Shown: positions 10,030 to 32,032 of the stretch, piece after piece
Layout of the letters: the number at the start of each line of letters is the position of its first letter
Numbering within the stretch: position 1 is the stretch's first letter
Source of the DNA: Candidatus Azambacteria bacterium RIFCSPHIGHO2_02_FULL_52_12
GTDB taxonomy: Bacteria; Patescibacteriota; Minisyncoccia; GWC2-36-17; WO2-46-25
Assembly: GCA_001775835.1 (NCBI GenBank)
Contig: MEYP01000001.1
Span: 7,732-43,431, forward strand
DNA length: 35,700 nt
Direction: 5' to 3'
Program-made: the position numbers and the translations under genes
Notes under the pieces: generated by a model
Seen by the model: only the letters and a program-made list of their open reading frames with translations
The model's database searches: none
Told to the model about the DNA's origin: nothing

Positions 10030-10317
10030 ATGGACATCAAAACCGTACAACATATCGCGAAATTGTCGTATCTCTCCGTGCCGGATGCGGAACTTGAACG
10101 TTTCGCAAAAGACCTTTCTGCTATCATCAGCTATGTGTCGGAGCTTGACGGGGCGGACACGAAAGGAACCCAGATCACCGCGCGCGAGGTTCAAACGCGC
10201 AACGTGATGCGCGAGGACGAATCGAAGGAAAAGGAAAGCGCGGAGGCTGCCGCAGAGCTGGTTGCCGCCGCGCCCGACAGCGAAGACGGCTATGTAAAGG
10301 TAAAGGCGATATTGTAA
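10030..10317 (+). CDS. gatC: Glu/Asp-tRNA amidotransferase subunit C
   Basis: 95 aa with GatC-like pattern (IAKLSYL...ELERF...L..I..YV..L). Stop overlaps the gatA start. Confidence 0.85.
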   Translation: MDIKTVQHIAKLSYLSVPDAELERFAKDLSAIISYVSELDGADTKGTQITAREVQTRNVMREDESKEKESAEAAAELVAAAPDSEDGYVKVKAIL

Positions 10318-11747
10318 TGGACATACTCAATCTCTCTATCAAAGAAATACACGATCAGCTTGTCTTGAAAAAGACATCGGCTGTCGAGGTCGCGGCATCT
10401 TTTATCGCACAGAGCAAAAAAACCGATGCGGACATCAAAGCGTACATCAGCTATGACTTTGACGCCATGCTCAAGCAGGCGCAGACCGTGGACGAAAAAA
10501 TCGCGCGGGGCGATGAGACATCCCTGCTCGCCGGCATCCCGTGCGCCATCAAAGATAATATCCTCATTAAGGGTTTGAAGGCGACGGCGGGGTCAAAAAT
10601 ATTGGAGAACTATGTCGCTTCATACGACGCGCATGTCATCGAAAAGCTCAAAGCGCACGATGTGCTGTTCACCGGCAAAACGAACATGGACGAATTCGCG
10701 ATGGGTTCGTCCACCGAGAATTCCGCGTTCTTTAAAACGAAAAACCCCGCGGACACGTCGCGCGTGCCCGGCGGGTCTTCGGGCGGTTCGGCGGCGGCGG
10801 TGGCGTCGCGATCTGCCGTGTTCGCGCTCGGGTCCGACACGGGCGGTTCCATCCGCCAACCCGCGTCTTTTTGCGGCGTGGTCGGTCTGAAGCCGACCTA
10901 CGGCGCGGTATCGCGTTCCGGCGTCATGGCGATGGCGTCTTCGCTTGACCAGATCGGGCCGTTCGCCAAAACGGTGGAAGATGCCAAAATCGTCTTTGAC
11001 GCCATCCGCGGCAAAGACCCGAAAGACGCGACAAGCATGGAAACAAAAATTCGAAATTCGAAATTCGAAATTCGAAATTTAAGAATTGGCGTGCCGAAAG
11101 AATATTTCGGCGGGGGCATCGACAAGGGCGTGAAGGCGTCCGTTGAAGCGGCGATCGCGGACATGCAAAAGGCGGGCGCGAAGATCATCGACATCAGTTT
11201 GCCGCACACTAAATATGCCATTGCCGCGTACTACATCATCATGCCCGCCGAAGTGTCTTCTAATCTGGCGCGGTATGACGGCATCAAGTATGGGCATTCG
11301 GCGTATCATGACAACGCGCATGACACGCTGGAGACGGTGTATCGCAACTCCCGCTCGGCCGGGTTCGGCAAGGAAGTTCAGCGCCGCATCATGCTGGGGA
11401 CGTATGTGCTGTCGGCGGGCTATTACGACGCGTATTACAAGAAAGCCCAGCAGGTGCGCACGCAGATCCGGGCCGATTTTGAAAAAGCGTTCAAACAGGT
11501 AGACGTGATAGCGACGCCCACGTGTCCCACCACCGCGTTTCGGTTCGGCGAGAAAACGACCGACCCGCTCGCGATGTATCTGGAAGACGTCTTCACCGTG
11601 CCAGTGAATCTTGCCGGATTGCCGGCGTTGTCCATGCCGTGCGCGCCGTCCAAAGGCTTGCCCGTCGGCCTCCAACTCATCGCGCCGTGGTTTGGCGAAG
11701 AAATATTATTTAGCGTTGGCGCGCAACTTGAACATGCCTCCGAGTAA
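10317..11747 (+). CDS. gatA: Glu/Asp-tRNA amidotransferase subunit A
   Basis: Amidase signature GGSSGGSAAAVA...GSDTGGSIRQPA. 476 aa. Confidence 0.95.
   Translation: MDILNLSIKEIHDQLVLKKTSAVEVAASFIAQSKKTDADIKAYISYDFDAMLKQAQTVDEKIARGDETSLLAGIPCAIKDNILIKGLKATAGSKILENYVASYDAHVIEKLKAHDVLFTGKTNMDEFAMGSSTENSAFFKTKNPADTSRVPGGSSGGSAAAVASRSAVFALGSDTGGSIRQPASFCGVVGLKPTYGAVSRSGVMAMASSLDQIGPFAKTVEDAKIVFDAIRGKDPKDATSMETKIRNSKFEIRNLRIGVPKEYFGGGIDKGVKASVEAAIADMQKAGAKIIDISLPHTKYAIAAYYIIMPAEVSSNLARYDGIKYGHSAYHDNAHDTLETVYRNSRSAGFGKEVQRRIMLGTYVLSAGYYDAYYKKAQQVRTQIRADFEKAFKQVDVIATPTCPTTAFRFGEKTTDPLAMYLEDVFTVPVNLAGLPALSMPCAPSKGLPVGLQLIAPWFGEEILFSVGAQLEHASE
11047..11081 (+). repeat. In-frame heptamer array (AAATTCG x4 plus AAATTTA) inside gatA
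   Basis: Perfect 7-nt tandem copies at 11047-11074. Encodes IRNSKFEIRNL in a linker before the conserved IGVPKEYF. Confidence 0.85.
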
Positions 11748-12343: not shown

Positions 12344-12417
12344 CGCGGGGTGGAGAAGTCTGGTATCTCGTTGGTCTCATAAGCCAAAGATCGCAGGTTC
12401 AAATCCTGCCCCCGCAA
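12344..12417 (+). tRNA. Initiator tRNA-fMet (CAU)
   Basis: CGCGGGG acceptor with a C1-A72 mismatch, D stem GAGA/TCTC, anticodon loop CTCATAA, T arm GCAGG TTCAAAT CCTGC. Close to the E. coli initiator sequence. CCA is not encoded. Confidence 0.85.
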
Positions 12418-12454
12418 CATGCAGAAAGGAGATGCCGCCGCTTGGCGGATTGCC

Positions 12455-12526
12455 GCCAGCATAGCTCAGTGGTAGAGCGAGCGTTTCATAAGCGCTAGGT
12501 CGCAGGTCCGATCCCTGCTGCTGGTA
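12455..12526 (+). tRNA. tRNA with CAU anticodon (elongator Met or lysidine-dependent Ile2)
   Basis: Cloverleaf GCCAGCA / GCTC..GAGC / AGCGT TTCATAA GCGCT / GCAGG TCCGATC CCTGC / TGCTGGT, discriminator A. Confidence 0.8.
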
Positions 12527-12546
12527 CTTGAAAACGTGTCACCCGC

Positions 12547-12622
12547 GGGCCCGTGGTCTAGCCTGGTCTATGGCGCCTCCCTGTCACGGAGGAAATCGCC
12601 GGTTCAAATCCGGTCGGGCCCG
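12547..12622 (+). tRNA. tRNA-Asp (GUC)
   Basis: Acceptor GGGCCCG/CGGGCCC, anticodon arm CCTCC CTGTCAC GGAGG, T arm GCCGG TTCAAAT CCGGT, discriminator G. Confidence 0.85.
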
Positions 12623-12693
12623 CAGGCGACATGTTTGAAAGAATGCGAAGCGAGATTTGCCGACATTGTTCATTTCAAAAAAGGAGGTGGGGC

Positions 12694-13449: not shown

Positions 13450-14601
13450 ATGTCCGAAAAAAATCATTACATAGAAGTGCAATCTTCGGAAGAACAGAAG
13501 CTTCGAGAGATGCTTGCGCACAAAAATGATGCCGATTCAAAACGGCTTGTCCGTTTTCTTTCACTTCCCGATCTTTCGCGCGATCCTTCGAGCCCCCTGT
13601 CGGAGCTTGTTTCACGCATCAAAAAAATCGAGCGGTTTTCGCATTTCGACGAGATAAAGGCGCCGGAAATCGTCCGGGCTGATATCAGTTTTGATCTGTT
13701 CAATTTTTCCCCCGATCACCCCGCTCGAAAATCAACAGACACTTATTTTATCGATGAAGAGTATATCTTAAGAACGCATACCACGGTCATGTGGTATTAC
13801 TATCTGCATGATGAGGCGATTAAAGAAAAGATCAGGAACAAAGAGTCTGTGGGGTCGCTTTCTTACGGCAAGGTATACCGTAAGGACGAGATAGACCGCA
13901 ATCACATGAATGTTTTCCATCAGATAGACGGATGGTATCTCACGCCAAAATCAGAGAAGGTCATTACCGCTGATGATCTGAAAGAAGTATTGATTGAAAT
14001 AGCTCATGCAGTTTTCGGGAACAATGTCGTCTATAGAATCAATCCCGACACTTTCCCTTATACCAACCCAAGTCTCGAAATGGAAGTGCAGATTGACGGG
14101 AGATGGGTCGAGGTTTTGGGGTCGGGCGTCGTGCAGGGAAACGTTCTTGAACGCCTTGGTGTTGACCCGGCCGTGTACAACGGATGGGCGTTCGGCTTCG
14201 GCCTTGAACGGCTTGCGATCATCAGCATGACGCTTCCCGATATCCGCCTGCTCTGGTCCGACGACCCGCGGATCAAAAAACAGCTGCGCCTGGGGAATGT
14301 TTATGTTCCCGTGAGCAAATATCCGCCGATTACGAGAGACATTTCGTTCGTGGTGTCGGACGATTTCATTCCCAATAATTATTTCGACCTGATACGGGAT
14401 TTGGGCGGCGAACTGGTTGAGGAAGTGAAGCTTGTCGACAAGTATGAAAACCCCGAAAAATTCGGCGCCCGCAAAACAAGCTATACCTACCGCATCATCT
14501 ATCGCAGCAACGACAGGACACTGCTTTCGGGCGAGGTGGATAGTATCCAGAAAAAAATATACGAGGAAACCGCGAAGCAATTTCACGCGGAGTTGAGATA
14601 A
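13450..14601 (+). CDS. pheS: Phenylalanine--tRNA ligase, single-chain type (class II catalytic core + C-terminal FDX-ACB domain)
   Basis: PheS motifs SPDHPARK, LRTHTT, GKVYRKDEID..H...FHQIDG, GWAFGFGLERLAI. The last ~100 aa (nt ~14299-14598: SKYPPITRDISFVV...KTSYTYRIIYRS.DRTL) fit the ferredoxin-fold anticodon-binding domain. Confidence 0.9.
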   Translation: MSEKNHYIEVQSSEEQKLREMLAHKNDADSKRLVRFLSLPDLSRDPSSPLSELVSRIKKIERFSHFDEIKAPEIVRADISFDLFNFSPDHPARKSTDTYFIDEEYILRTHTTVMWYYYLHDEAIKEKIRNKESVGSLSYGKVYRKDEIDRNHMNVFHQIDGWYLTPKSEKVITADDLKEVLIEIAHAVFGNNVVYRINPDTFPYTNPSLEMEVQIDGRWVEVLGSGVVQGNVLERLGVDPAVYNGWAFGFGLERLAIISMTLPDIRLLWSDDPRIKKQLRLGNVYVPVSKYPPITRDISFVVSDDFIPNNYFDLIRDLGGELVEEVKLVDKYENPEKFGARKTSYTYRIIYRSNDRTLLSGEVDSIQKKIYEETAKQFHAELR

Positions 14602-15089
14602 TGAAAGGGTTAATCGCCTACTCTTTTGCGCTCGGGGAACATGAACCAAATCCATGTAATATGAGGCTTGCTTGCGCCGTTGATCGGATTGTCAAAGAAG
14701 AGAGAGAAAGGGGAGAGGAAGTAGTCGTTGTTGCCCAGTGGGAGATTGCCTTGGCGCTTTCCGTAGAACCGGATTTCGTTGTACACGAACATCGGCAAGG
14801 GGATATGTATCTTGACAGCGAGGAGATTACCTCGCAGGCAACTCCTTTGTTTTTACGCCATGGCATCACCAAGGTTATCCCGGTTGCGAATCCGTTTTTA
14901 CATCTTTTCAAATGCAAGAAGCTTATTCGCCGGGCTGGGTTTGTATCTCTTTCCAGGCGCGTTGGATGGGTTGGATTTTATAAAAACTCCCTTCAGTGGT
15001 ATACGCGCGGCCCCATTCGTCTTCTCGCGTATGCCGCGCTGCAGTTTTTATTCGGATATCACGGGAAGGTTATCAGAAAGCAGTCTTGA
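14601..15089 (+). CDS. DUF218/YdcF-like protein, paralogue 1
   Basis: ATG overlaps the pheS stop (TAATG). The pattern YLDSEEITSQA...VIPVANPFLHLFKCKKLIRRAGF resembles the DUF218 core (weak call, by eye). Confidence 0.5.
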   Translation: MKGLIAYSFALGEHEPNPCNMRLACAVDRIVKEERERGEEVVVVAQWEIALALSVEPDFVVHEHRQGDMYLDSEEITSQATPLFLRHGITKVIPVANPFLHLFKCKKLIRRAGFVSLSRRVGWVGFYKNSLQWYTRGPIRLLAYAALQFLFGYHGKVIRKQS

Positions 15090-15174: not shown

Positions 15175-15684
15175 ATGCGGATAGGATTGATTGCCTATTC
15201 TTTTGCGCTTAGGGAAACAGAACCGAATCCATGTGATGTGAGACTTGCTCAAGCAGTCGAACGAATCGTGAAGGAAGAGGTGGAGAAGGGAAACGAGGTG
15301 ATCGTTATTGCTCAGTGGGAAGTGGCGCTCGCACTTTCAATAGAGCCCGCCCTTGTGGTACGCGAGCATCGCCAGAAGGGCGCATATCTTGACAGCGAAG
15401 AGGTGACATCGCAAGCGATTCCTATTTTTGAGGGGTATAGGATTACCGAGGTCATTCCCGTCGCGAATCCATTTCTGCATCTTTTCAAATGCAGGAAACT
15501 GGTTCGCAGTGCGGGACTTACCCCTCTCCGAAGGCGCATAGGCTGGATCGGGTTCGATAAGGACTCCCTTCAGTGGTACACGCGCGGACCCGCTCATCTT
15601 CTCGTCTACACCGCGCTTCAAGTTTCAGTCGGGTATCGCGGAAAGCACATTGATGTTGACCGCAACAACAAACTAGCGAGGTGA
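15175..15684 (+). CDS. DUF218/YdcF-like protein, paralogue 2
   Basis: Roughly two-thirds identical to the 14601 ORF by eye (LIAYSFAL..EPNPC..RLA.AV.RIVKEE...VIPVANPFLHLFKC.KL...SLQWYTRGP). Confidence 0.5.
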   Translation: MRIGLIAYSFALRETEPNPCDVRLAQAVERIVKEEVEKGNEVIVIAQWEVALALSIEPALVVREHRQKGAYLDSEEVTSQAIPIFEGYRITEVIPVANPFLHLFKCRKLVRSAGLTPLRRRIGWIGFDKDSLQWYTRGPAHLLVYTALQVSVGYRGKHIDVDRNNKLAR

Positions 15685-15687
15685 GCG

Positions 15688-16089
15688 ATGGATAATTCGG
15701 TTGCGGTTCCCCCTGATTGCATTGTCGGTGTCGAGCACGAAGCGAAGAGCGGTCCTTTTTGGGCCGGAAACGACCGATTGGGATTGGCGCTTCTAACGTG
15801 CTTGGACAAAAAGCCGCCGATCCCGCTTATTTTACAGCAAGGAATCGCCCGATACATAAACACGCCGATGGTCGAAAAAGCAAAGGTCATCGAGAAGCAC
15901 CGGCAGGAAGGCGTTCCGCTTGACCTTGAAGAAGTCTGTTTTCAGGCGGCAAGGATCATAAAAGAAAAAAACTGGAAGACGTGTTTCGTGCTTGCGCACA
16001 AGAGCGATGTTGCGGCGTGCAAGCGGATTCTGCACGGGTATGGAGTTCTCGTGACAGGAGAGATTGTTGTCAATCCAAATGTTTGGTAG
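15688..16089 (+). CDS. Divergent third member of the same family
   Basis: SD GAGGTGA before ATG. Retains the core layout (LDLEEVCFQAARII...CFVLAHKSDVAACKRILHGYGV) but not the C-terminal SLQWYTRGP segment. Confidence 0.4.
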   Translation: MDNSVAVPPDCIVGVEHEAKSGPFWAGNDRLGLALLTCLDKKPPIPLILQQGIARYINTPMVEKAKVIEKHRQEGVPLDLEEVCFQAARIIKEKNWKTCFVLAHKSDVAACKRILHGYGVLVTGEIVVNPNVW

Positions 16090-16090
16090 C

Positions 16091-16138
16091 AAGGGTCCCG
16101 TTGTGCTCGAAAATGAGCCGCGGGACCCTTCTTTTTTG
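16091..16138 (+). terminator. Rho-independent terminator
   Basis: AAGGGTCCCG (16091-16100), loop, CGGGACCCTT (16121-16130), then TCTTTTTTG. Confidence 0.75.
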
Positions 16139-16140
16139 TA

Positions 16141-16169
16141 TGGACAAGCAGCTTATTTTTTGCTAAAAT
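16141..16169 (+). promoter_or_regulatory. Candidate gyrB promoter (extended -10)
   Basis: TGGACA, 17-nt spacer whose last 3 nt are the TGc of an extended -10, then TAAAAT (16164-16169), 8 nt, ATG 16178. Confidence 0.45.
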
Positions 16170-16177
16170 TGAGCTAT

Positions 16178-18286
16178 ATGGCAAAAGGTGAAAAGGAGCA
16201 GAAAACACAGAAAAATCCTCGCTATTCGGCGGAGGATATTTATGTATTGGAGGGGCTTGAACCGGTCAGAAAACGTCCCGGCATGTACATCGGCTCCACG
16301 GGCGTCGACGGCCTGCACCACCTGGTGTGGGAAATTTTTGACAACTCGCGCGACGAAGCGCTTGGCGGGTATGCGACCGAAATAGAAGTGGCGCTTCTGC
16401 CCGATAATGTGGTGCGTATTGCGGACGATGGGAGAGGCATTCCCGTGGACATACATCAAAAGACAAAAGTGTCCGCGCTTGAAACGGCGATGACGACGCT
16501 TCATGCCGGCGGGAAATTCGGCGGAGAGTCGTACAAGGTTTCCGGCGGCCTGCACGGTGTGGGCGCTTCGGTGGTGAACGCGCTGTCGTCGTGGCTCAAA
16601 GTGGAAGTGCATAAAGACGGCGGCAAATGGGTGCAGGAATACAAGCGGGGCGAACCGAAAGCGAAAGTGAAGAAAGTGGAAAGCTCGAAGCTTCATGGGA
16701 CAATCACCACGTTCACGCCGGATCCGACTATTTTCTCCGACATCACGTTTGACTTTCAAAAGATCAAAGACCACCACCGCCAACAGGCGTATCTGGTGAA
16801 AAAATTACACATCAGAATCATTGATGCGCGGGAATATGCCGGGAAGATAGACGATTCCGTGTATTATCTCCGGGAGCTCGGCCTGCCGGTGCCGTCATAT
16901 TCGTTTTATTTTGAAGGCGGCATCGCGTCGCTGGTGAAATATCTGAACAAGGATCAGGAAGCTCTGCACGATACGGTGTTTTACACGGAAAAAGAACGTG
17001 ACAAGGTCGGGGTGGAGGTTGCTCTGCAATATGTGGCCGACATCACCACGAAAGAAATGAGTTTTGCCAATACCATCCCCACGGCAGAAGGCGGAACGCA
17101 TCTGACCGGTTTTCGCGCGGCGCTGACCAGAGTGTTGAACGACTACGCGCGCAAGAACGGGCTTTTGAAAGACGCGGACGACAACCTGTCGGGAGAAGAC
17201 GTGAGAGAGGGCATGACCGCCGTCATTTCCGTGAAAATCGTCGAGCCGCAATTTGAAGGGCAGACCAAGGGCAAGCTCGGCTCGCAGGAGGGGCGCACCG
17301 CGACGGAAGCGGTGGTGGGGGATTCGTTCTCCGATTTTCTGGAAGAGCACCCGCAGGACGCGCGCAAGATTCTGGAACGGTGCATCTTGTCGCAGAAAGC
17401 CCGCAAGGCGGCGAAAGCGGCCCGCGAAACGGTCCTGCGCAAAGGAATCCTTGACGGCCTGACCCTGCCCGGCAAGCTGGCCGACTGTTCTTCGCGCAAG
17501 GCGGAAGAATCGGAGCTGTATATTGTGGAAGGAGATTCCGCGGGCGGTAGTGCCAAGCAGGGCCGCGACCGCAGGTTTCAGGCGATCCTGCCGCTCAAAG
17601 GCAAGATATTGAATATCGAGCGGGCGCGTTTGGATCGTATCTTGTCCTCTTCGGAAATCCGCGCGCTCATCATCGCTCTTGGCACCGCCATCGCCGACGA
17701 ATTCGATATCGCAAAACTGCGCTATCACCGCATCATCATCATGACCGATGCCGACGTGGACGGCTCGCATATCCGTACGCTTTTGCTGACCCTGTTTTAC
17801 CGCTATTTCCCCGCGCTCATCGCCAAAGGCCATATCTACATCGCCCAGCCGCCCCTGTATAGAATTCAAATGGGAAAAAAGGTAGAATACGCGTATACGG
17901 ACAAGACAAAAGAAGCTGTTCTTGCCCGCTGGAAGGCGGGCAAACAGGAAGTCGAAAGTCAAAAGTCAATCCGCCAGTCGGCGGACAAAAGTGCGAGTGA
18001 AGAGCCGGAAGAACCGGCAGAGGAGGACTTGTCCCCCGAAGCTTTAGCGAAGGGGGAGAAAGTCAAAGGAGTTTCCATCCAGCGCTACAAGGGTCTTGGC
18101 GAGATGAACGCCGAACAGTTGTGGGATACGACGATGAACCCGGAAAAGCGGATGATGATGCAAGTGACCATCGCGGACGCGCAGGAAGCGGACAAGATAT
18201 TCGATATTTTGATGGGCGCCGAGGTGGGTCCCCGCAAGCGCTTCATCCAGACCCACGCCAAAGACGTTAAGAATTTGGATGTATAA
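16178..18286 (+). CDS. gyrB: DNA gyrase subunit B (start chosen at ATG 16178; the ORF from 16064 would run through the terminator)
   Basis: YSAEDIYVLEGLEPVRKRPGMYIG, GHKL ATPase motifs, Toprim EGDSAGG, QRYKGLGEMN. Confidence 0.95.
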   Translation: MAKGEKEQKTQKNPRYSAEDIYVLEGLEPVRKRPGMYIGSTGVDGLHHLVWEIFDNSRDEALGGYATEIEVALLPDNVVRIADDGRGIPVDIHQKTKVSALETAMTTLHAGGKFGGESYKVSGGLHGVGASVVNALSSWLKVEVHKDGGKWVQEYKRGEPKAKVKKVESSKLHGTITTFTPDPTIFSDITFDFQKIKDHHRQQAYLVKKLHIRIIDAREYAGKIDDSVYYLRELGLPVPSYSFYFEGGIASLVKYLNKDQEALHDTVFYTEKERDKVGVEVALQYVADITTKEMSFANTIPTAEGGTHLTGFRAALTRVLNDYARKNGLLKDADDNLSGEDVREGMTAVISVKIVEPQFEGQTKGKLGSQEGRTATEAVVGDSFSDFLEEHPQDARKILERCILSQKARKAAKAARETVLRKGILDGLTLPGKLADCSSRKAEESELYIVEGDSAGGSAKQGRDRRFQAILPLKGKILNIERARLDRILSSSEIRALIIALGTAIADEFDIAKLRYHRIIIMTDADVDGSHIRTLLLTLFYRYFPALIAKGHIYIAQPPLYRIQMGKKVEYAYTDKTKEAVLARWKAGKQEVESQKSIRQSADKSASEEPEEPAEEDLSPEALAKGEKVKGVSIQRYKGLGEMNAEQLWDTTMNPEKRMMMQVTIADAQEADKIFDILMGAEVGPRKRFIQTHAKDVKNLDV
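17950..17970 (+). repeat. In-frame heptamer words (AGTCGAA AGTCAAA AGTCAAT) inside gyrB
   Basis: Same word as the ligA array. Lies in an acidic insertion (QEVESQKSIRQSADKSASEEPEEPAEED) before QRYKGLGEM. Confidence 0.6.
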
Positions 18287-18287
18287 C

Positions 18288-18938
18288 ATGCGAAAACTGT
18301 TTTCATTATTCGTCCTTGGATTTATGCTTACCGGCGTTTTTTCGTTTGCTTTTGGTTCGTATGCTCAAGGGTGCAACGGTGCGCCGGATTGTTTTGATTT
18401 GAGTACGGTCAATCCGCTTGGAACCAGTGAAGTTACCGTTATTGTTTGTAATGTCGCCCTGTTCCTCCAGGTAAAACTCATGCCGCCTATCGCGGTGCTC
18501 ATGGTTTTGTGGGCGAGCTTTTTGTATCTGACGTCGGCGGGGAGTCCCGGCAACGTAACGTCGGCAAAACAGATACTGGTATACACCATCATCGGCGCGG
18601 GCATTCTCATCATCGCTCCCGCGCTGATAGCGCTGGTGATAGACATATTTGGCAAAAGCACGACAGTCACCACCGCCACGTCGACCTGTAGTACATTAGC
18701 GTCCGCTACGACACTCACCGCGGTATTCGCCAATCTCATCAATTGGTTCTCGTGGTTCCTGGCTCTCGCGTCGGTTGCGGCGGGGCTGTATTCCGGATTT
18801 TTGTACATGACATCAAGCGGCGACCCGCGCAAAGCTGTCATGGCAGGAAGCATATTGTTCTATGCGGTAATCGGGATAGCTGTTGCTATCTTGGCGTTCA
18901 GCATCCTCGCCCTTATCAAGGGGTTTATTGTGCCTTGA
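18288..18938 (+). CDS. Secreted/membrane protein with two tandem VirB2/TrbC-like (T4SS pilin-like) modules
   Basis: Signal peptide MRKLFSLFVLGFMLTGVFSFAFGSYA. Two homologous two-helix units: ASFLYLTSAGSPGNVTSAKQILVYTIIGAGILII and SGFLYMTSSGDPRKAVMAGSILFYAVIGIAVAIL. Confidence 0.6.
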   Translation: MRKLFSLFVLGFMLTGVFSFAFGSYAQGCNGAPDCFDLSTVNPLGTSEVTVIVCNVALFLQVKLMPPIAVLMVLWASFLYLTSAGSPGNVTSAKQILVYTIIGAGILIIAPALIALVIDIFGKSTTVTTATSTCSTLASATTLTAVFANLINWFSWFLALASVAAGLYSGFLYMTSSGDPRKAVMAGSILFYAVIGIAVAILAFSILALIKGFIVP

Positions 18939-19380: not shown

Positions 19381-19926
19381 ATGTCACGACAAGTCATGGA
19401 ACAGGGGAGGAACTGGTACGCCATCCATACCTACGCGGGGTATGAGGATGCCGTGGCGCGCAATCTGGTTCAGCGCATCGAATCCATGGGCATGGAAGAC
19501 AAGATATTCAGCGTGCTGGTTCCCAAAGAAAAGAAGATCAAGATAAAAAACGGCAAACGCCAGACGGTGGAAGAAAAGATCTACCCGGGCTATGTGCTGG
19601 TTGACATGACGGTGACGGACGACTCGTGGTACGTGGTGCGCAATACGCCGCGCGTGACGGGTTTTGTCGGTTCGGGCGTGACGCCGACGCCGCTTTCCCC
19701 CGAAGAAGTGAAGATGCTGCAGAAGCGCATGGGCGCGGACGAACCGAAATACAAGATCGACGTCGCCGAGGGCGATGCGGTGAAAGTGGTGGACGGCCCG
19801 TTCAAGGATTACGAAGGCAAGGTTGCCGAGGTGGACGAAGAGAAGGGCAAGGTGAAGGTTCTCGTGTCCTTGTTTGGCAGGGAAACGCCCGTGGAACTGG
19901 ACTTTTTGCAGATGAAAAGAATTTAA
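19381..19926 (+). CDS. nusG: Transcription termination/antitermination factor NusG
   Basis: NGN start WYAIHTYAGYE, KOW motif GDAVKVVDGPFKDYEGKV. Confidence 0.95.
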   Translation: MSRQVMEQGRNWYAIHTYAGYEDAVARNLVQRIESMGMEDKIFSVLVPKEKKIKIKNGKRQTVEEKIYPGYVLVDMTVTDDSWYVVRNTPRVTGFVGSGVTPTPLSPEEVKMLQKRMGADEPKYKIDVAEGDAVKVVDGPFKDYEGKVAEVDEEKGKVKVLVSLFGRETPVELDFLQMKRI

Positions 19927-20144
19927 GGGCTTTATCCCAAAATATGAGCTTTGTAGAAGCGAACTATTTTGGTGATAAAACCTTACCCGCCTAAATTTTT
20001 AGACAGGGAGAGGGGGGTGAAAAGATACATTATGAAAGAGCGAGCCACAAGACTTAGTTATTACAATTAAAAAATTTTGGCGGGTGCTCATACTTGTAGT
20101 GAAATGTACTTCGCTACGAGATGAGCTTGTAAATTTCAACAAGT
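19925..20144 (+). promoter_or_regulatory. Structured 5' leader of rplK (copy B of the duplicated leader architecture)
   Basis: Long hairpin 19986-20000 / 20070-20084, GTGCTCA (20084-20090), then hairpin TACTTGT...ACAAGTA (20091-20145) whose last base is the A of the rplK ATG. Confidence 0.45.
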
Positions 20145-20567
20145 ATGGCAAAACCAATCAAAGCAGTCGTTAAATTGAATCTGAAAGCCGGTCTGGCAAA
20201 TCCCGCGCCGCCGGTGGGCACCGCGCTGGGTCCGCACGGGCTGAACATCCAGCAGTTCTGTCTGCAGTACAACGAAAAGACGAAAGACCGCATGGGCGAG
20301 GTCATCCCGGCGGAAGTGACCGTTTTTGAAGACCGGACGTTCGAGTTCAAGCTCAAAACGCCGCCCGCATCCGAACTGATCAAGCAAGCGGCGAAAGTGG
20401 AAAAGGGCTCGGGCATTCCCCATAAAAACAAAGTCGGCAGCATCACCAAAGCGCAAACGCGCGAAATCGCCCAAAAGAAGATGGCGGATCTGAACGCGTA
20501 CGACGTCGAGCAGGCCTCAAAGATCATCGAAGGAACTGCACGCTCCATGGGCGTAACCGTAAAATAA
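20145..20567 (+). CDS. rplK: Ribosomal protein uL11
   Basis: [30 protein letters not shown] is the uL11 N-terminal signature. 140 aa. Confidence 0.95.
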
Positions 20568-20570
20568 CAT

Positions 20571-20692
20571 ATAACTTACGCAATGGGCGCATTTCATTGT
20601 TGCGCCGCACAAAATATCGCTCACCATACCGCATGTATGGCTCACACTATTTTGCTTGCGCGCCTCGAACTGCATCCCATTGCGTGAGTTAT
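20571..20692. other. Structured intergenic element closed by a 17-bp stem
   Basis: ATAACTTACGCAATGGG (20571-20587) pairs with CCCATTGCGTGAGTTAT (20676-20692) with one G-U. Internal hairpins GGCGCA/TGCGCC (20586-20606) and 20607-20656. Confidence 0.5.
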
Positions 20693-20699
20693 AAACTTT

Positions 20700-21365
20700 A
20701 TGCGAGCTAACCCCTATCCCGGCGCATTTATCGTCATTGAAGGGATAGATGGCAGCGGAAAATCTCTCCAGGCCGATTTTATCGAGCAATGGCTTGTCGA
20801 CATGCAAGGGAAAAAGGCGCGTGATGTTTTAAAGACGCATCAGCCTTCAAAGGGCGCGTTCGGCGCGCATATCAGGGATATTCTCGAAGGAAAGGAGCCG
20901 GCTCCGGAAGACCCGTTCGCATTCCAGGAGCTTTACATGAAAGACCGAAAAGAGCATATGCGGGATTTCATCGTTCCGCATCTTAAAAAAGGAGGCGTCG
21001 TCATCGCCGACCGTTTCTTTTTGAGCACCTTTGCGTACGGCATGGCTCACGGGGCTTCGTTTGAGGCGCTCAGGGATGCGCATGAACGCATCGTGGGAGA
21101 CGATTGGATCATTCCCGACGTCACCTTTCTCATTGACATCAACCCCGCCGTAGCGTTGGTGCGGCTGAAGGCGAGAGCGGGAGGCAAGAGCCTTGAATAT
21201 TTTGAAAAAAAAGAGCATTTTTTGGAGCGTGTCGCGGTGGCTTACCGTGACCTGTCAAAAAAGTTTCCTGTACGCACGGTTTCGGGCGACCGGCCCATCG
21301 CGGAGGTTTCCGAAGCCATCCACAGGATTCTTGCGGGCGAGAAAAAGATAACGTATACTCCCTAG
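20700..21365 (+). CDS. tmk: Thymidylate kinase
   Basis: P-loop FIVIEGIDGSGKS and a DRF motif (ADRFFLSTFAY). Confidence 0.9.
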   Translation: MRANPYPGAFIVIEGIDGSGKSLQADFIEQWLVDMQGKKARDVLKTHQPSKGAFGAHIRDILEGKEPAPEDPFAFQELYMKDRKEHMRDFIVPHLKKGGVVIADRFFLSTFAYGMAHGASFEALRDAHERIVGDDWIIPDVTFLIDINPAVALVRLKARAGGKSLEYFEKKEHFLERVAVAYRDLSKKFPVRTVSGDRPIAEVSEAIHRILAGEKKITYTP

Positions 21366-21366
21366 T

Positions 21367-22830
21367 ATGACATACGAACCGGTCATCGGGCTTGAAATCC
21401 ACGCCCAACTCAAAACAAAAACGAAGATGTTTTGCGGGAGTCTCAACGACCCGGACGAGACGCACCCCAACGTGCACGTGTGTCCGGTGTGCATGGGGCA
21501 CCCGGGAACGCTCCCCGTTCCCAACAAAAAGGCAATAGAATCGGTCGTGAAAGTCGGGCTCGCGCTTTCGTGCGAGATAGCAAAGCGCTCGAAATTCGAC
21601 CGCAAAAACTATTTTTACCCCGACCTGCCCAAAGGATACCAGATATCGCAATACGACATGCCGTTATGCGAGCGCGGCACGCTCGACGTGCTGGGCAAAA
21701 AAGTGCGCATCACCCGCATTCACCTGGAAGAAGACACGGGGCGGCTGGTCCACAACAAGCTGGGGTCCAGTTTTGTCGATTTCAACCGCGCCGGCGTGCC
21801 GCTCATGGAGCTCGTGACGGAGCCCGATATCCGAAACGCCGAGGAAGCCGTCGCGTTCGCCAAAAAACTGCAGACGATCCTGCAGTATCTCGACGTGTCG
21901 GAGGCGAACCTCGAAAAAGGCCAGATGCGCTGCGAGGTGAACATCAGCATGCGCAAGCCGGAGGGGGAATTCGGCACAAAAGTGGAGATAAAAAACATCA
22001 ATTCGTTTTCTGCCGTGCGGGACGCCATCGCGTATGAGATAAAACGGCAGTCCGCCGCGCTCGCCAAAGGGGAGAAGATAGTGCAGGAAACCAGAGGGTG
22101 GGATGAGAACAAAAAAGCCACCGTTTCACAGCGCCTGAAAGAATCAGCGCACGATTACCGCTATTTTCCCGAGCCGGATCTAAGCGAATTGGTCCTTGGC
22201 GGCGAGGAAGGCGCTCCCGAAGAAACCGTCATAGACGTTGAAAAGATCAGAGCGTCCCTGCCTGAATTGCCCGACCAGAAGAAAGCGCGGTTTCAAAAGG
22301 AATTCTCATTATCCGAAAAAGAAACGGAAGTTCTGGCGTCCGACAAATACACCGCATCGTTTTTTGAACACGTGGTATCAGAGTTAGACGCGGAGAGGGA
22401 AATAGACAAGGCGCTCGTAAAGCTCGCGGTAAATTACCTCAATACCGACCTGCGTAAATTGATAAACGAAACAGGAACGCCGATCTCTGAAATGCTGGTG
22501 AGCGCGGAAAACTTCGCCGAGCTGGTAGGCTTGCTCCATGAAGGAAAAATCACGTCATCAGCCGGAAAGATGGTGCTTGAAGAGATGTTCCGCACGGGTA
22601 AAGACCCGAGTAACATCATCGAAGAAAAAGGGCTCGCACAGGTGTCTGACATCGCCGAACTTGAAAAAACCGTTCTCGAGATCATCGCCGCTCATCCCAA
22701 AGTCGTTACCGATTACAAAGCCGGCAAGCAAAACGCACTCCAGTTTTTGTTGGGACAGCTCATGGCGAAAACAAAGGGGAAGGCGAACCCGGAAACGAGC
22801 GCGGAAATCCTCAAAAAACTCCTCTCATAA
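21367..22830 (+). CDS. gatB: Glu/Asp-tRNA amidotransferase subunit B
   Basis: YEPVIGLEIHAQL..., CPVCMGHPGTLP, 487 aa with a GatB/YqeY tail. Confidence 0.95.
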   Translation: MTYEPVIGLEIHAQLKTKTKMFCGSLNDPDETHPNVHVCPVCMGHPGTLPVPNKKAIESVVKVGLALSCEIAKRSKFDRKNYFYPDLPKGYQISQYDMPLCERGTLDVLGKKVRITRIHLEEDTGRLVHNKLGSSFVDFNRAGVPLMELVTEPDIRNAEEAVAFAKKLQTILQYLDVSEANLEKGQMRCEVNISMRKPEGEFGTKVEIKNINSFSAVRDAIAYEIKRQSAALAKGEKIVQETRGWDENKKATVSQRLKESAHDYRYFPEPDLSELVLGGEEGAPEETVIDVEKIRASLPELPDQKKARFQKEFSLSEKETEVLASDKYTASFFEHVVSELDAEREIDKALVKLAVNYLNTDLRKLINETGTPISEMLVSAENFAELVGLLHEGKITSSAGKMVLEEMFRTGKDPSNIIEEKGLAQVSDIAELEKTVLEIIAAHPKVVTDYKAGKQNALQFLLGQLMAKTKGKANPETSAEILKKLLS

Positions 22831-29954: not shown

Positions 29955-31403
29955 TTAACGCACCGCTTCTCCCTCCGCATACGCATTGAGTTCGGTTTGA
30001 TTTACCGTTGCAACCTCCGCATAGACTAAGCCCAGTTTCGTAAACGCCGCTTCGGTGCTGACCCATCGTTTCTGATTGTTTTCGATAAGATACACCTTTT
30101 GGCTGGTCGAAAGCTTGATAGCTCGGACGGTGGGATACGAATCTAAAATGCTCGTGCCAATTGTTTTCACGTTCTCCCATTTGTTGTTGTAAGAGTTAAA
30201 CACCGCAAGAGAGGGGATTGGTTTTTTCAGTCCCGCCGGGGTGATGTAGTAAATCACAGAACTGCCCGCTGTTTTAACCAGTGAACCGGATCCCGGACGC
30301 ACCAACGGCGCGGCGCCGGAGAGTTCCGCATCTTCCAGCGGCGATCCTTCCTGGTAATAGTCCCGTTCTTTGGCGTTGATAATGAATACTTGGTTCCATG
30401 AGTAGCCAAACTGGGTGAATCGTTCTCCCGCAATATTCATCCATCGCTTCTCTGCAAGTCCCTGCCGCTCATCAAGCTCTTTGAGGGAGAATACGCGGGT
30501 ATCGCCGTCAGCGCGATAGAAGTCTGATGTTTTCAAGCTGTCCATGGTTTGCTGGTCGAGCGTCTTGATCTGATCCCATTTGAAATGACCATACATGGAA
30601 AAGACGGCGGGATTGAAGATATGCCTTCGGTAGCCATGCTGATTAACGATGTAGACTTTGATACCATCAGGGCCTCTCACGAGGTCGCCTTCACGAACTC
30701 CTGAAGGAAGATTCGTGGATTGGACGAAGGAAGAAGCTGAAGGCGTCGGAGCGGGAACAGGAGCAGCTGTAGGAGTCGGGGTTGGCGCGACAGAACCGCC
30801 TCCGCCACCACCGGAAGAAGGCGCAGGGGAGGGGGCCGAAGGCGCGGGAGAAGAAACAGACGACGTGAGCGTATAATTTCCGTTTGTCACGGCCGTAAGC
30901 GCATCGGCGCCCGCGCTTGCCACATTGGCATCGGTAGTCCCGCCCGCAGCGAACGTAAACGTGACCGCGGCAACACCCGGAGCGCGCGCTTTGAAACGCG
31001 CCGTCGCAAGCGTACCGCTCCCGCTGAATCCCGGTCCGCCAATGTTGGCGATCTGCGAAAACGATATGCGGCCATTTGTCGCGTCCGCCACATTCACAAT
31101 GGTCTGCGGCATAAGCGAGCCCGGCGCGATTTGCACTCCCGCAACTGTAGCATCATCATCCTGCACCTCCAAAAGCGAAGGGTTGTAGTTCAGGTACAAA
31201 ATATCAACGCCCGCCACGCCGAGTGACTGCGTATTCAAAAGCAACGCGACGGGAAAAATATCGCCCACCGTTCGGGAACCGGAGCTCGGCGACAATGAAA
31301 GAGTCGCGGCGGATGCTGGAACCGCGCGTCCCGCAAAAAGCAGGACCATTCCCGCCGCAACAAAAGAGAATATGATTTTACTTGATAATGACATGGGTGC
31401 CAT
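29955..31403 (-). CDS. Secreted cohesin-domain protein with P/S/G linker and four C-terminal ~55-aa repeats
   Basis: Signal peptide ...AVPASA|A. Cohesin-like pattern VGDIFPVALLL..VAGVDILYLNYNPSLLEV..GRISFSQI..GSGTLATARFKARAPGVAAVTFTF (nt ~30864-31307). Linker contains GGGGGG. Confidence 0.7.
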   Translation of the reverse strand: MAPMSLSSKIIFSFVAAGMVLLFAGRAVPASAATLSLSPSSGSRTVGDIFPVALLLNTQSLGVAGVDILYLNYNPSLLEVQDDDATVAGVQIAPGSLMPQTIVNVADATNGRISFSQIANIGGPGFSGSGTLATARFKARAPGVAAVTFTFAAGGTTDANVASAGADALTAVTNGNYTLTSSVSSPAPSAPSPAPSSGGGGGGSVAPTPTPTAAPVPAPTPSASSFVQSTNLPSGVREGDLVRGPDGIKVYIVNQHGYRRHIFNPAVFSMYGHFKWDQIKTLDQQTMDSLKTSDFYRADGDTRVFSLKELDERQGLAEKRWMNIAGERFTQFGYSWNQVFIINAKERDYYQEGSPLEDAELSGAAPLVRPGSGSLVKTAGSSVIYYITPAGLKKPIPSLAVFNSYNNKWENVKTIGTSILDSYPTVRAIKLSTSQKVYLIENNQKRWVSTEAAFTKLGLVYAEVATVNQTELNAYAEGEAVR

Positions 31404-32007
31404 GCGCCTTTTTCAGGAGATCTTTCCCGAAATAGGCGACATTTGAATCAATGATCGACCCTTCTTCAAACACGAACGTCATCTTTGCGGTTCCCGGCGC
31501 GCGCGCCGTAAACAGAAGCGCCGCGACAGGCCCCTTTTCCCGCATCTCCTTCAGCGGTTTCGCGAGAGCGGTGAAAAAAACATCTCCGCTTTCCTCGTTC
31601 ACCTTTACATAGGGGAAAATATCAAAAATGGAATCATCTGTTTTCAGGTACGCATCCGCGCCGTCGCCTTTTCCCGTGCGTTGTATCGCAAGCAAAAGGG
31701 GATCATAGCGCAGTACTACGTCAACTCCGGCGGCCTCTTTTCTTCCGCTGTCAAGCATAATGCGCACTATCACCGGATCTCCCGCCGCATATTCCTCCTT
31801 GTCCGCAACCAACGAGAGCGTCACCGGCTTTCCCTGTAAGGACAAGCCTCTCAACGCGCTTGTTTCACTGATATCCACCACCGCAAACGCCAACGTTACC
31901 GCAATGAGCCCTGCGGCCCCAAACCCCGCGAGAAACACAAGGGACATAAAGAACCAATTTGTCCTGCCAAACATCATCTTTTCAATTTTGCTTTTTTGTT
32001 CACTCAT
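31378..32007 (-). CDS. Membrane-anchored cohesin-domain protein
   Basis: N-terminal TM helix WFFMSLVFLAGFGAAGLIAVTLAFAV. Cohesin-like GDPVIVRIML..AAGVDVVLRYDPLLL..GDVFFTAL..VAALLFTARAPGTAKMTFVF. Overlaps the start of the next gene. Confidence 0.65.
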   Translation of the reverse strand: MSEQKSKIEKMMFGRTNWFFMSLVFLAGFGAAGLIAVTLAFAVVDISETSALRGLSLQGKPVTLSLVADKEEYAAGDPVIVRIMLDSGRKEAAGVDVVLRYDPLLLAIQRTGKGDGADAYLKTDDSIFDIFPYVKVNEESGDVFFTALAKPLKEMREKGPVAALLFTARAPGTAKMTFVFEEGSIIDSNVAYFGKDLLKKAHGTHVIIK

Positions 32008-32032
32008 AATTTCATGCTAGAGCGCTTCTTAA

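What the first reader, a model, noticed from the sequence alone, without database searches (positions are those of the whole stretch)
13450..14601. Single-chain, mitochondrial-type phenylalanyl-tRNA synthetase
Seen: one 383-aa ORF carries the PheS catalytic motifs (SPDHPARK, GKVYRKDEIDRNH..FHQIDG, GWAFGFGLERLAI). It continues for ~100 aa (nt ~14299-14598) with YVPVSKYPPITRDISFVV...LIRDLGGELVEEVKLVDKYENPEKFGARKTSYTYRIIYRSNDRTLLSGEV. That is the pattern of the ferredoxin-fold anticodon-binding (FDX-ACB) domain. No long N-terminal coiled-coil arm is present and no pheT follows; the next gene overlaps the stop and is unrelated. Established: canonical bacterial PheRS is an (alpha-beta)2 enzyme in which FDX-ACB is the last domain of the beta subunit. 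The catalytic-core-plus-FDX-ACB fusion is the architecture of the monomeric mitochondrial enzyme, and the C-terminal third here resembles my recollection of human FARS2 closely. Inference: this lineage may run on a minimal monomeric PheRS without the beta-subunit editing site. That matters both for translational fidelity and for the debate on the origin of the organellar enzyme.
Basis: partly seen in the sequence, partly recalled or inferred. Interest (0 to 1): 0.65.

Follow-up and report, generated by a model that had tools for sequence, protein, structure and literature searches.

The report
Single-chain PheRS replacing pheS-pheT in CPR
This gene encodes a one-piece, mitochondrial-style phenylalanyl-tRNA synthetase that sits exactly where related ultra-small (CPR) bacteria keep the usual two-gene enzyme, so a large bacterial group very probably charges tRNA-Phe with a minimal enzyme that has no proofreading domain.

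Summary
Window 13450-14601 (+) is a 383-aa ORF with a class II PheRS catalytic core (PF01409, E 1.6e-56) fused to a C-terminal FDX-ACB anticodon-binding domain (PF03147, E 2.2e-23). It has no long N-terminal arm, and no pheT follows. Human mitochondrial PheRS is the best sequence match and the only full-length structural match. At least 571 GTDB species of Patescibacteria carry the gene at 62-83% identity among the best 80, more conserved than GyrB. The key new result is positional. Sister Paceibacteria (Nealsonbacteria type) have gatA-pheS-pheT-gyrB-secE-nusG-rplK-tmk-gatB, and the window has the same order with the fused gene in the pheS-pheT slot. Flanking genes are 54-70% identical, but the synthetase is only about 30% identical to their PheS. 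Core-only trees put all fused proteins (CPR, other bacterial, mitochondrial, giant-virus) in one clade apart from canonical PheS (200/200). It is therefore a bacterial member of the mitochondrial-type "PheRS-M" family, most likely the sole, editing-free PheRS of this lineage. Not shown: absence of pheT from this whole genome, the monomeric state and enzyme activity. I found no published description. NCBI mostly labels these proteins "hypothetical".

The parts
13450..14601 (+). Fused single-chain phenylalanyl-tRNA synthetase gene (383 aa, stop included)
   Evidence: ORF; Pfam PF01409+PF03147; best PDB match is human mitochondrial PheRS, E 4e-57; full-length fold match TM 0.59-0.66
13450..13587 (+). 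Short N-terminal region (residues 1-46, two short predicted helices); takes the place of the ~100-aa coiled-coil arm of canonical PheS
   Evidence: The Pfam core starts at residue 47 and no PF02912 was reported; predicted helices 13-24 and 28-38; E. coli PheS aligns only from about residue 100
13588..14283 (+). Class IIc catalytic core (residues 47-278) with motif 2 (GKVYRKDEIDRNHMNVFHQIDG), the Phe-pocket loop (FPYTNPS) and motif 3 (GWAFGFGLERLA)
   Evidence: PF01409 E 1.6e-56; 13 catalytic and specificity positions mapped to E. coli PheS are all invariant in the CPR family
14284..14313 (+). Linker or hinge between core and anticodon-binding domain (residues 279-288)
   Evidence: Lies between the two Pfam domains; lower model confidence, block means of 69-76 over residues 261-290; the preceding PDIRLLWSxDxRxxxQ segment (Pfam assigns it to the end of the core) is shared by all fused and mitochondrial-type proteins and by the C-terminus of E. 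coli PheS
14314..14598 (+). FDX-ACB (ferredoxin-fold anticodon-binding) domain, residues 289-383; homolog of domain B8 of PheT
   Evidence: PF03147 E 2.2e-23, full profile coverage; TIGR00472 pheT_bact matches only positions 698-798; matches the C-terminus of E. coli and Nealsonbacteria PheT
10317..11747 (+). gatA, upstream anchor of the conserved block
   Evidence: Pfam Amidase E 3.5e-154; 64% identical to the gatA upstream of pheS-pheT in L210
14601..16089 (+). Three tandem small ORFs (162, 169, 133 aa) inserted between the fused gene and gyrB; specific to this lineage and not part of the synthetase
   Evidence: no Pfam match; the first two are 70% identical; in related genomes the fused gene and gyrB are usually adjacent
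16064..18286 (+). gyrB, downstream anchor. In sister lineages pheT ends directly upstream of gyrB
19381..22830 (+). nusG (19381-19926), rplK (20145-20567), tmk (20700-21365), gatB (21367-22830): the rest of the collinear block shared with pheS-pheT-bearing relatives
   Evidence: Pfam; same order in L210 and L212

Best explanation
The gene encodes the housekeeping phenylalanyl-tRNA synthetase of a Paceibacteria (Parcubacteria, CPR/Patescibacteria) bacterium, in the single-chain 'PheRS-M' form so far associated with mitochondria. By homology, the class IIc core binds ATP and phenylalanine, makes Phe-AMP and transfers Phe to tRNA-Phe. The C-terminal FDX-ACB domain, joined by a flexible hinge, reads the GAA anticodon. 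In ordinary bacteria the last domain of the beta subunit does that job. There is no B3/B4 editing domain, so Tyr or meta-Tyr mischarged onto tRNA-Phe cannot be cleared by this enzyme, and accuracy rests on the active-site pocket. Evolutionarily, the gene displaced the ancestral pheS-pheT pair at the same chromosomal position. It belongs to one fused-PheRS clade together with the mitochondrial enzyme and is not a recent local fusion. Shown here: architecture, motif conservation, predicted fold, clade membership, wide vertical distribution and positional replacement. Inferred: Phe specificity, monomeric state, lack of any other PheRS in this genome, and lack of editing in trans.
For: Domains: PF01409 47-278 and PF03147 289-383. 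Best sequence matches in the PDB are human mitochondrial PheRS chains, E 4e-57, ahead of bacterial alpha subunits at E 4e-35. The AlphaFold model (pLDDT 86.5) matches human mitochondrial PheRS over its full length (E 1e-31, TM 0.59-0.66), while bacterial alpha chains match only the core. Thirteen catalytic and Phe-pocket positions are invariant in the family, including the equivalents of the E. coli specificity residues T251 and A294; the only differences from E. coli are Q169H, S171T, E210D and F250Y, and each of these residues also occurs in other members of the fused or mitochondrial-type group. Distribution: more than 6,700 database hits and at least 571 GTDB species, all Patescibacteria among the best 80. 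Conservation against other species: fused PheRS 62-83%, GyrB 58-78%, GatA 52-70%, GatB 51-73%, ThrRS 40-50%. Synteny: gyrB lies directly downstream in 57 of 69 loci with room for it, median gap 198 nt, and no second PheS-like gene occurs in 81 loci. Positional replacement: L097 has pheT-gyrB-nusG-rplK; L210-L213 have gatA-hyp-pheS-pheT-gyrB-secE-nusG-rplK-...-tmk-...-gatB, collinear with the window. Flanking genes are 54-70% identical to L210, as similar as to fused-type loci, but the synthetase is only 30% identical. One complete Paceibacteria annotation (PMX_810) with pheS+pheT has no fused gene (PMC9600506 Table S3). Named PheTs closest to the slot-occupying PheT come only from Nealsonbacteria and Parcubacteria DG_74_1, never from lineages that hold the fused gene. 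Core-only NJ tree: fused versus canonical split 200/200; CPR plus other bacterial fused 196/200; CPR fused with CPR canonical 0/200.
Against: The rest of this genome was not available, so a pheS-pheT pair elsewhere is not excluded. The window protein falls just below the curated cutoffs of TIGR00469 pheS_mito (233.9 against 258.35) and scores nominally highest against NF051887 'PheS-related mystery ligase SrmL' (244.5 against 300), so curated models do not name it; NCBI mostly calls these proteins 'hypothetical'. The score advantage of the mitochondrial model over bacterial PheS (234 against 162 bits) is about what the added FDX-ACB domain contributes (72.5 bits), so HMM scores alone do not prove a special mitochondrial affinity. 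The trees are neighbour-joining on 209 columns, unrooted, and could be affected by long branches or by shared release from beta-subunit constraints. The FDX-ACB tree supports a single fused clade only weakly (96/200). No biochemical or expression data exist for any bacterial member that I could find.
Confidence: 0.8

Rival explanations
1. It is an accessory PheS-like ligase of unknown function, comparable to NCBI's 'PheS-related mystery ligase SrmL', which coexists with a normal pheS-pheT elsewhere in the genome and does something other than bulk tRNA-Phe charging.
For: The nominally best NCBIfam score is to NF051887 SrmL (244.5 bits), whose 349-position profile aligns across both domains. NCBI mostly annotates the family as 'hypothetical protein'. 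The whole genome was not inspected. A related fused protein also occurs in a non-CPR Oligoflexia MAG, whose canonical pheS/pheT status I could not check.
Against: The score is below the curated SrmL cutoff of 300, and none of the relatives tested reached it. The gene sits in the exact slot of pheS-pheT in a collinear housekeeping block, which is what replacement predicts and an accessory paralog does not. It is present in at least 571 species and is more conserved than GyrB. The Phe-pocket and catalytic residues are intact and invariant. No canonical pheS or pheT lies within 10 kb in 81 loci.
Confidence: 0.08
2. It is the cell's PheRS but does not work as a stand-alone monomer: it dimerises or needs a separate tRNA-binding or editing partner supplied in trans.
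For: In 8 related loci, including both Doudnabacteria-labelled ones, a ~141-aa standalone tRNA_bind OB-fold gene lies directly upstream (homolog of PheT domain B2; PF01588 E 1.7e-16). Most class II synthetases are dimers. Oligomeric state cannot be read from sequence.
Against: The window and most of the 81 loci lack that upstream gene. The closest characterised relatives, the mitochondrial PheRS, are described as monomers (PMC3275996 and PMC11580382 as retrieved; otherwise established knowledge). No B3_4 domain was found in the window or in any of the 81 flanks.
Confidence: 0.08
3. The gene is a recent in-place fusion: a deletion inside the local pheS-pheT operon joined the pheS core to the last domain of pheT, independently of the mitochondrial enzyme (convergence).
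For: It sits in the same chromosomal slot as pheS-pheT. The domain junction is exactly the end of PheS followed by the start of PheT domain B8. The HMM score arithmetic is additive.
Against: The core is only about 31% identical to the sister lineage's PheS, lower than to unrelated canonical PheS (35%), mitochondrial-type (39%) and other bacterial fused proteins (49.5%). CPR fused never groups with CPR canonical in 200 bootstraps for either half. No pheS or pheT remnants flank the gene. An ancient fusion followed by fast divergence is not excluded.
Confidence: 0.04

Closest known systems
Mitochondrial phenylalanyl-tRNA synthetase (human FARS2, yeast MSF1; TIGR00469 pheS_mito; 'PheRS-M' in AARS Online, PMC11580382)
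   Same: Same two-domain architecture in one chain (class IIc core plus FDX-ACB), no coiled-coil arm and no editing domain. Best sequence and only full-length structural match. Same clade on the catalytic core alone (200/200). The shared segment PDIRLLWSxDxRxxxQ precedes the FDX-ACB domain.
   Different: Encoded in a bacterial chromosome inside a housekeeping block, with no presequence. It lacks the insertion between motifs 2 and 3 that splits the alignment to the human enzyme into two stretches. It carries a ~10-residue insertion (MWYYYL...KEKIRN) shared only with other bacterial fused proteins. About 30-32% identical overall, and just under the curated TIGR00469 cutoff. It forms a bacterial sister clade and is not nested among eukaryotic sequences.
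Canonical bacterial (alpha-beta)2 PheRS (pheS TIGR00468 plus pheT TIGR00472), including the reduced CPR form whose PheT lacks domains B1/B2
   Same: Homologous catalytic core (32-37% identity to E. coli PheS across) and homologous FDX-ACB domain. Same chromosomal position as pheS-pheT in Nealsonbacteria-type Paceibacteria. Presumably the same reaction.
   Different: One 383-aa chain instead of about 340 plus 680-800 aa. No N-terminal arm, no B3/B4 editing domain, no B5 and no catalytic-like module. Below the TIGR00468 cutoff (162 against 237). Separated from all canonical PheS with 200/200 support.
NCBIfam NF051887 'PheS-related mystery ligase SrmL'
   Same: The profile aligns over both domains (positions 17-345 of 349), so SrmL appears to share the core-plus-C-terminal-domain layout. 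It gives the nominally highest NCBIfam score.
   Different: The score of 244.5 is below the curated 300-bit cutoff, and none of the relatives tested reached it. I could not retrieve any true SrmL member or any literature on it, so its organisms, context and active site could not be compared.
Giant-virus PheRS (e.g. Tupanvirus soda lake), compact ~345-aa PheRS-M proteins
   Same: Single chain with the same two domains and a similar length. Part of the same fused clade.
   Different: They group with the mitochondrial type (182/200) and not with the bacterial fused clade, and the four tested pass the TIGR00469 cutoff. Mean identity to the window core is about 36%.

Membership tests
PheRS-M (mitochondrial-type single-chain PheRS; TIGR00469) | Class IIc PheRS catalytic core with motifs 2 and 3 and the Phe-binding loop | tested here: met
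   PF01409 E 1.6e-56; 13 key positions conserved and invariant in the family
PheRS-M (mitochondrial-type single-chain PheRS; TIGR00469) | FDX-ACB anticodon-binding domain fused to the C-terminus of the same polypeptide | tested here: met
   PF03147 residues 289-383, profile 1-94 of 94, E 2.2e-23
PheRS-M (mitochondrial-type single-chain PheRS; TIGR00469) | No N-terminal coiled-coil arm, no beta-subunit domains (B1-B7), no editing domain | tested here: met
   The Pfam scan reported only PF01409 and PF03147; only 46 residues precede the core; pheT_bact matches only its last 100 positions
PheRS-M (mitochondrial-type single-chain PheRS; TIGR00469) | Score at or above the curated equivalog cutoff of TIGR00469 (258.35 bits) | tested here: not met
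   Window protein 233.9 bits. A 59%-identical CPR relative (P0121) passes with 264.3. The model was built from eukaryotic sequences (my knowledge), so a near miss is expected for a bacterial sister clade
PheRS-M (mitochondrial-type single-chain PheRS; TIGR00469) | Catalytic domain monophyletic with mitochondrial PheRS (the AARS Online family criterion, PMC11580382) | tested here: met
   Core-only NJ tree, fused versus canonical bipartition 200/200; the method is simple and should be repeated with maximum likelihood
PheRS-M (mitochondrial-type single-chain PheRS; TIGR00469) | Full-length fold like human mitochondrial PheRS | tested here: met
   Foldseek E 1e-31, TM 0.59-0.66 over about 405 columns to 3CMQ, 3TUP and 5MGx; the model has pLDDT 86.5
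PheRS-M (mitochondrial-type single-chain PheRS; TIGR00469) | Active as a monomer; aminoacylates tRNA-Phe with Phe | not testable with these tools
   Needs recombinant protein
Canonical bacterial PheRS alpha subunit (TIGR00468 pheS) | Curated cutoff of 237.45 bits; N-terminal PF02912 domain; partner pheT gene | tested here: not met
   162.2 bits; no PF02912 reported; no pheT in the window or within 10 kb in 81 related loci
SrmL, PheS-related mystery ligase (NF051887) | Curated equivalog cutoff of 300 bits | tested here: not met
   244.5 bits; ten relatives tested scored 195-274 bits
Sole housekeeping PheRS of the genome | No other pheS or pheT anywhere in the same genome | tested here: inconclusive
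   Whole genomes could not be read with these tools. Indirect support: positional replacement, one complete canonical-type genome without the fused gene, and the lineage names of PheT hits

The most novel reading that the evidence does not exclude
A major radiation of bacteria (at least 571 species-level lineages of Patescibacteria) has replaced the universal heterotetrameric PheRS with a single-chain enzyme and translates with no PheRS editing at all. In addition, this bacterial fused clade, and not an in-eukaryote fusion, represents the stock from which the mitochondrial (and giant-virus) PheRS was drawn. That would mean the 'mitochondrial' architecture is originally bacterial.
Probability: 0.3. 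Interest if true: 0.75.

Novelty: new member of a known kind. Interest (0 to 1): 0.6.

Why it matters
Reviews and databases describe three PheRS forms: bacterial (alpha-beta)2, archaeal/eukaryotic (alpha-beta)2, and a monomer described for organelles (PMC3275996, PMC11580382, PMC4494062). A widespread, vertically inherited bacterial clade that uses the single-chain form as its cytoplasmic enzyme breaks that picture.

It gives a natural bacterial case of complete loss of PheRS proofreading. That bears on how much mistranslation reduced-genome symbionts tolerate and on their sensitivity to meta-tyrosine.

It also explains why marker-gene sets that rely on pheS and pheT models would undercount these genomes, since the protein falls below both curated cutoffs.

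It offers a compact 383-aa bacterial PheRS for structural and engineering work.

Finally, it makes the origin of the mitochondrial enzyme testable, because a bacterial sister clade is now available to root and date the fusion.

Tried and rejected
**Flank sampling.** I searched about 1.15 Mb of flanks from 80 species for pheT. This is uninformative, because the flanks all cover the same syntenic region.

**Literature.** Nine searches found no description of a bacterial monomeric PheRS or of SrmL. Mukai 2017 only notes that many CPR PheRS-beta lack domain B2.

**Supplementary gene tables.** Tables for a cultured relative gave only the canonical-type genome PMX_810. The table for the Yanofskybacteria-type strain was truncated or absent.

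**Core-only representative hits.** I considered using them as canonical CPR PheS seeds. They are truncated fused or mitochondrial-type proteins.

**Long fusion proteins (577-872 aa).** These are merged with AlaRS, YebC or a methyltransferase and have no editing domain.

**Changed substrate.** I considered whether Glu-to-Asp (FHQxDG) and Phe-to-Tyr (FPYT) signal a different substrate. Rejected, because both vary within the fused and mitochondrial-type group.

**Prokaryotic 'compact' proteins.** I considered whether the ~345-aa proteins are prokaryotes nested with mitochondria. At least one is from a giant virus and the contig sizes fit giant viruses.

**Recent in-place fusion.** Rejected on identity, trees and the absence of remnants.

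**RNA leaders.** Rfam found no T-box or other leader upstream, only three tRNAs at 12344-12623.
Full report
**1. The observation**

Window 13450-14601 (+) is an uninterrupted 383-aa ORF with an ATG start. Pfam places a class II PheRS core (PF01409) at residues 47-278 (E 1.6e-56). [quoted passage not shown] The Pfam scan reported no other domain, so the N-terminal PheS domain is absent and only 46 residues precede the core. The stop codon overlaps the ATG of the next ORF by one base (TAATG), and that ORF has no recognisable family. The window has no B3_4 or B5 sequence.

**2. The surroundings**

The window is ordinary chromosomal DNA of a Patescibacteria (CPR) bacterium. It carries:
- type IV pilus genes, ligA and gatA
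- a tRNA-Met/Met/Asp cluster
- the fused gene, then three small paralogous ORFs
- gyrB, a T4SS-pilin-like gene, nusG, rplK, tmk and gatB
- miaA(-), thrS(-) and dnaE(-)
- large cohesin/dockerin surface proteins

The closest named GTDB species is a Candidatus Azambacteria MAG (L003): PheRS 80%, GyrB 78%. L002 is slightly closer at 83% but carries an uninformative automatic label.

**3. What the protein is**

- By sequence, the best solved relatives are human mitochondrial PheRS chains (E 4e-57). Bacterial alpha subunits follow at E 4e-35, and beta subunits match only through their last domain.
- An AlphaFold2 model (mean pLDDT 86.5) matches human mitochondrial PheRS over its whole length (Foldseek E 1e-31, TM 0.59-0.66). 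Bacterial alpha chains cover only the core.
- The model is closer to the closed crystal forms (rmsd about 5.5 Å) than to the tRNA-bound open form 3TUP (rmsd 16.9 Å). Confidence dips at the inter-domain linker, as expected for a hinge.
- I mapped 13 catalytic and Phe-pocket positions to E. coli PheS. They include the motif 2 and 3 arginines, the FHQ glutamine, the FPxT loop, and the specificity residues equivalent to T251 and A294. All are invariant in 18 family members.
- The differences from E. coli are Q169H, S171T, E210D and F250Y. Each of these residues also occurs in other members of the fused or mitochondrial-type group. They therefore give no reason to expect a different substrate.
- From memory, the T. 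thermophilus beta-subunit residues that contact G34 (Asp729, Tyr731, Ser742, Arg780) correspond by motif to D330, Y332, S344 and R383. These are invariant here. I did not verify that mapping structurally.

**4. Curated models do not name it**

| NCBIfam model | Score (bits) | Cutoff (bits) |
|---|---|---|
| NF051887 'PheS-related mystery ligase SrmL' | 244.5 | 300 |
| TIGR00469 pheS_mito | 233.9 | 258.35 |
| TIGR00468 pheS | 162.2 | 237.45 |

This explains why NCBI mostly labels the family 'hypothetical protein' while JGI calls it 'PheS alpha chain'. A 59%-identical CPR relative does pass the pheS_mito cutoff, and none of the ten relatives tested reaches the SrmL cutoff. The 72-bit gap between the pheS_mito and pheS scores roughly equals the FDX-ACB contribution (72.5 bits to pheT_bact). 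HMM scores alone therefore do not establish a special tie to mitochondria.

**5. Distribution and constraint**

The protein has more than 6,700 database relatives. The top 120 are all about 380 aa, have the same two domains and are 67-100% identical. The best 80 are all Patescibacteria (Azam-, Wolfe-, Giovannoni-, Yanofsky-, Niyogi-, Wildermuth-, Colwell-, Specht-, Nomura- and Doudnabacteria).

Identity of window proteins to their counterparts in those species:

| Protein | Identity range |
|---|---|
| Fused PheRS | 62-83% |
| GyrB | 58-78% |
| NusG | 66-85% |
| GatA | 52-70% |
| GatB | 51-73% |
| LigA | 47-65% |
| ThrRS | 40-50% |

Few proteins in this region are under stronger purifying selection.

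**6. The key result: positional replacement**

In 57 of 69 related loci with enough downstream sequence, gyrB follows the fused gene on the same strand, with a median gap of 198 nt. No locus holds a second PheS-like gene.

To find CPR PheT genes I scanned metagenomes with a degenerate DNA pattern for the PheT B5 motif. The pattern proved specific: 7 of 7 trial hits were true PheT.
- L097 reads pheT-gyrB-nusG-rplK, with GyrB 57.5% and NusG 70% identical to the window's.
- Using its PheT as a seed, the 120 closest PheTs are B1/B2-less proteins of about 675-720 aa. The only named sources are Nealsonbacteria, 'Parcubacteria DG_74_1' and one labelled only 'bacterium'.
- Their contigs read gatC-gatA-hyp-pheS-pheT-gyrB-secE-nusG-rplK-...-tmk-deoC-gatB-...-miaA(-).
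- The window reads gatA-...-[fused PheRS]-gyrB-...-nusG-rplK-tmk-gatB-miaA(-).

The blocks are collinear, and one gene stands where two stood. Flanking proteins are as similar between the window and the canonical-type locus L210 (GyrB 58%, NusG 70%, GatA 64%, GatB 54.5%, L11 56%) as between the window and a typical fused-type locus. The synthetase itself drops to 30%.

A complete annotation of another canonical-type Paceibacteria genome (PMX_810; PMC9600506 Table S3) has exactly one pheS and one pheT and no fused gene.

Together this makes it very likely that the fused gene is the replacement for pheS-pheT and not an extra paralog. I could not read whole genomes, so the absence of pheT from this genome remains an inference.

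**7. Origin**

A simple idea is an in-place deletion that joined pheS to the last domain of pheT. The data do not favour a recent event of that kind.

| Group compared | Identity to window core | Identity to window FDX-ACB |
|---|---|---|
| Sister lineage's canonical PheS / PheT | about 31% | 31-37% |
| Unrelated canonical PheS | 35% | not compared |
| Mitochondrial-type proteins | 39% | 36-46% |
| Other bacterial fused proteins (one from an Oligoflexia MAG) | 49.5% | not compared |

Bootstrapped neighbour-joining on 209 core columns (FDX-ACB excluded) gave:
- fused versus canonical split: 200/200
- CPR plus other bacterial fused: 196/200
- mitochondrial-type plus 'compact': 182/200
- CPR fused with CPR canonical: 0/200

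The 96-column FDX-ACB tree agrees weakly (96/200 for one fused clade; 0/200 with the sister PheT). No pheS or pheT remnants flank the gene. The 'compact' ~345-aa proteins include Tupanvirus soda lake and sit on contigs typical of giant viruses.

The family therefore has two arms: a bacterial one and a mitochondrial plus giant-virus one. The tree is unrooted within the family, so the direction of transfer (bacteria to the proto-eukaryote, or the reverse) is open. Long-branch effects or shared release from beta-subunit constraints could also inflate support.

**8. How it most likely works**

By homology with the mitochondrial enzyme (established knowledge; structures 3CMQ and 3TUP):
1. The core forms Phe-AMP.
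2. The FDX-ACB domain swings on its hinge to bind the GAA anticodon.
3. Phe is transferred to A76.

There is no B3/B4 site, so there is no post-transfer editing of Tyr- or meta-Tyr-tRNA-Phe. Fidelity depends on the pocket, where the A294 and T251 equivalents are retained. In 8 related loci, including both Doudnabacteria-labelled ones, a standalone tRNA_bind OB-fold gene lies just upstream and may assist tRNA binding in trans. The window lacks it.

**9. Comparison with what is known, and novelty**

The protein meets the architectural, structural and phylogenetic criteria of the PheRS-M family. It narrowly misses the eukaryote-trained TIGR00469 cutoff. It fails the criteria for canonical PheS and for SrmL. 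The papers I could search treat the monomeric form as organellar (PMC3275996, PMC11580382, PMC10810186, PMC4494062), and I found none describing bacterial members. That is absence of evidence in an open-access library only. I rate it a new (bacterial, cytoplasmic) member of a known kind, of moderate-to-high interest to aaRS and CPR specialists.

**10. Verdict**

Confidence that this is the lineage's housekeeping single-chain PheRS is about 0.8. The main open items are a whole-genome pheT census, rooted maximum-likelihood phylogeny and biochemistry.

Noticed in passing
window 14601-15089, 15175-15684, 15688-16089 (+): Three tandem small ORFs (162, 169, 133 aa) lie between the fused PheRS and gyrB. 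The first two are 70% identical and none has a Pfam match. The first overlaps the PheRS stop (TAATG). Most related genomes have the fused gene and gyrB directly adjacent, so this is a lineage-specific insertion of an uncharacterised, duplicated gene.
   Followed up: partly
L043 9526-9951 (+); also L030, L032, L041, L064, L070, L078, L079: A ~141-aa standalone tRNA_bind OB-fold gene (PF01588; 37-41% identical to E. coli PheT residues 36-151) sits immediately upstream of the fused PheRS in 8 related loci, including both Doudnabacteria-labelled ones. It may be a trans-acting tRNA-binding helper. The window has no such gene.
   Followed up: partly
L109 3958-6253 (+): A CPR-like metagenome contig has gatB-pheS-pheT in which PheS is only 254 aa (no N-terminal arm) and PheT starts at the B3_4 domain. 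It is a strongly reduced but still two-gene PheRS, a possible intermediate state of reduction.
   Followed up: no
Proteins P0144, P0413-P0531; P0470 is from Tupanvirus soda lake: Compact ~345-aa single-chain PheRS proteins on contigs of 0.2-1.5 Mb appear to be giant-virus genes. They cluster with mitochondrial PheRS, and the four tested pass the TIGR00469 cutoff.
   Followed up: partly
Protein P0124 (NCBI MBX7144632.1, Oligoflexia MAG); also P0125-P0127: Fused PheS-core plus FDX-ACB proteins also occur outside CPR (44% identical; labelled 'hypothetical'). They share a ~10-residue insertion with the CPR family. I could not check whether these genomes also keep pheS and pheT.
   Followed up: no
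window 18279-18938 (+): A T4SS-pilin/TrbC-like gene (PF18895, PF04956) lies between gyrB and nusG, overlapping the end of gyrB. In the canonical-type relatives secE lies just upstream of nusG.
   Followed up: no
window 29955-35632 (-): Large predicted surface proteins with cohesin, dockerin, fn3 and Ig-like domains (481 and 1198 aa) suggest a cellulosome-like or attachment scaffold in a CPR bacterium.
   Followed up: no
window 12344-12623 (+): A tRNA cluster (Met-CAT, Met-CAT, Asp-GTC) lies about 800 nt upstream of the PheRS gene. The window has no tRNA-Phe.
   Followed up: no
L097-L213 and PMC5370408: The PheT proteins of the Patescibacteria-type loci (about 660-720 aa) start near E. coli residue 155, so they lack domains B1/B2. 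This agrees with the remark in Mukai et al. 2017 that B2 is missing in many CPR PheRS-beta.
   Followed up: partly
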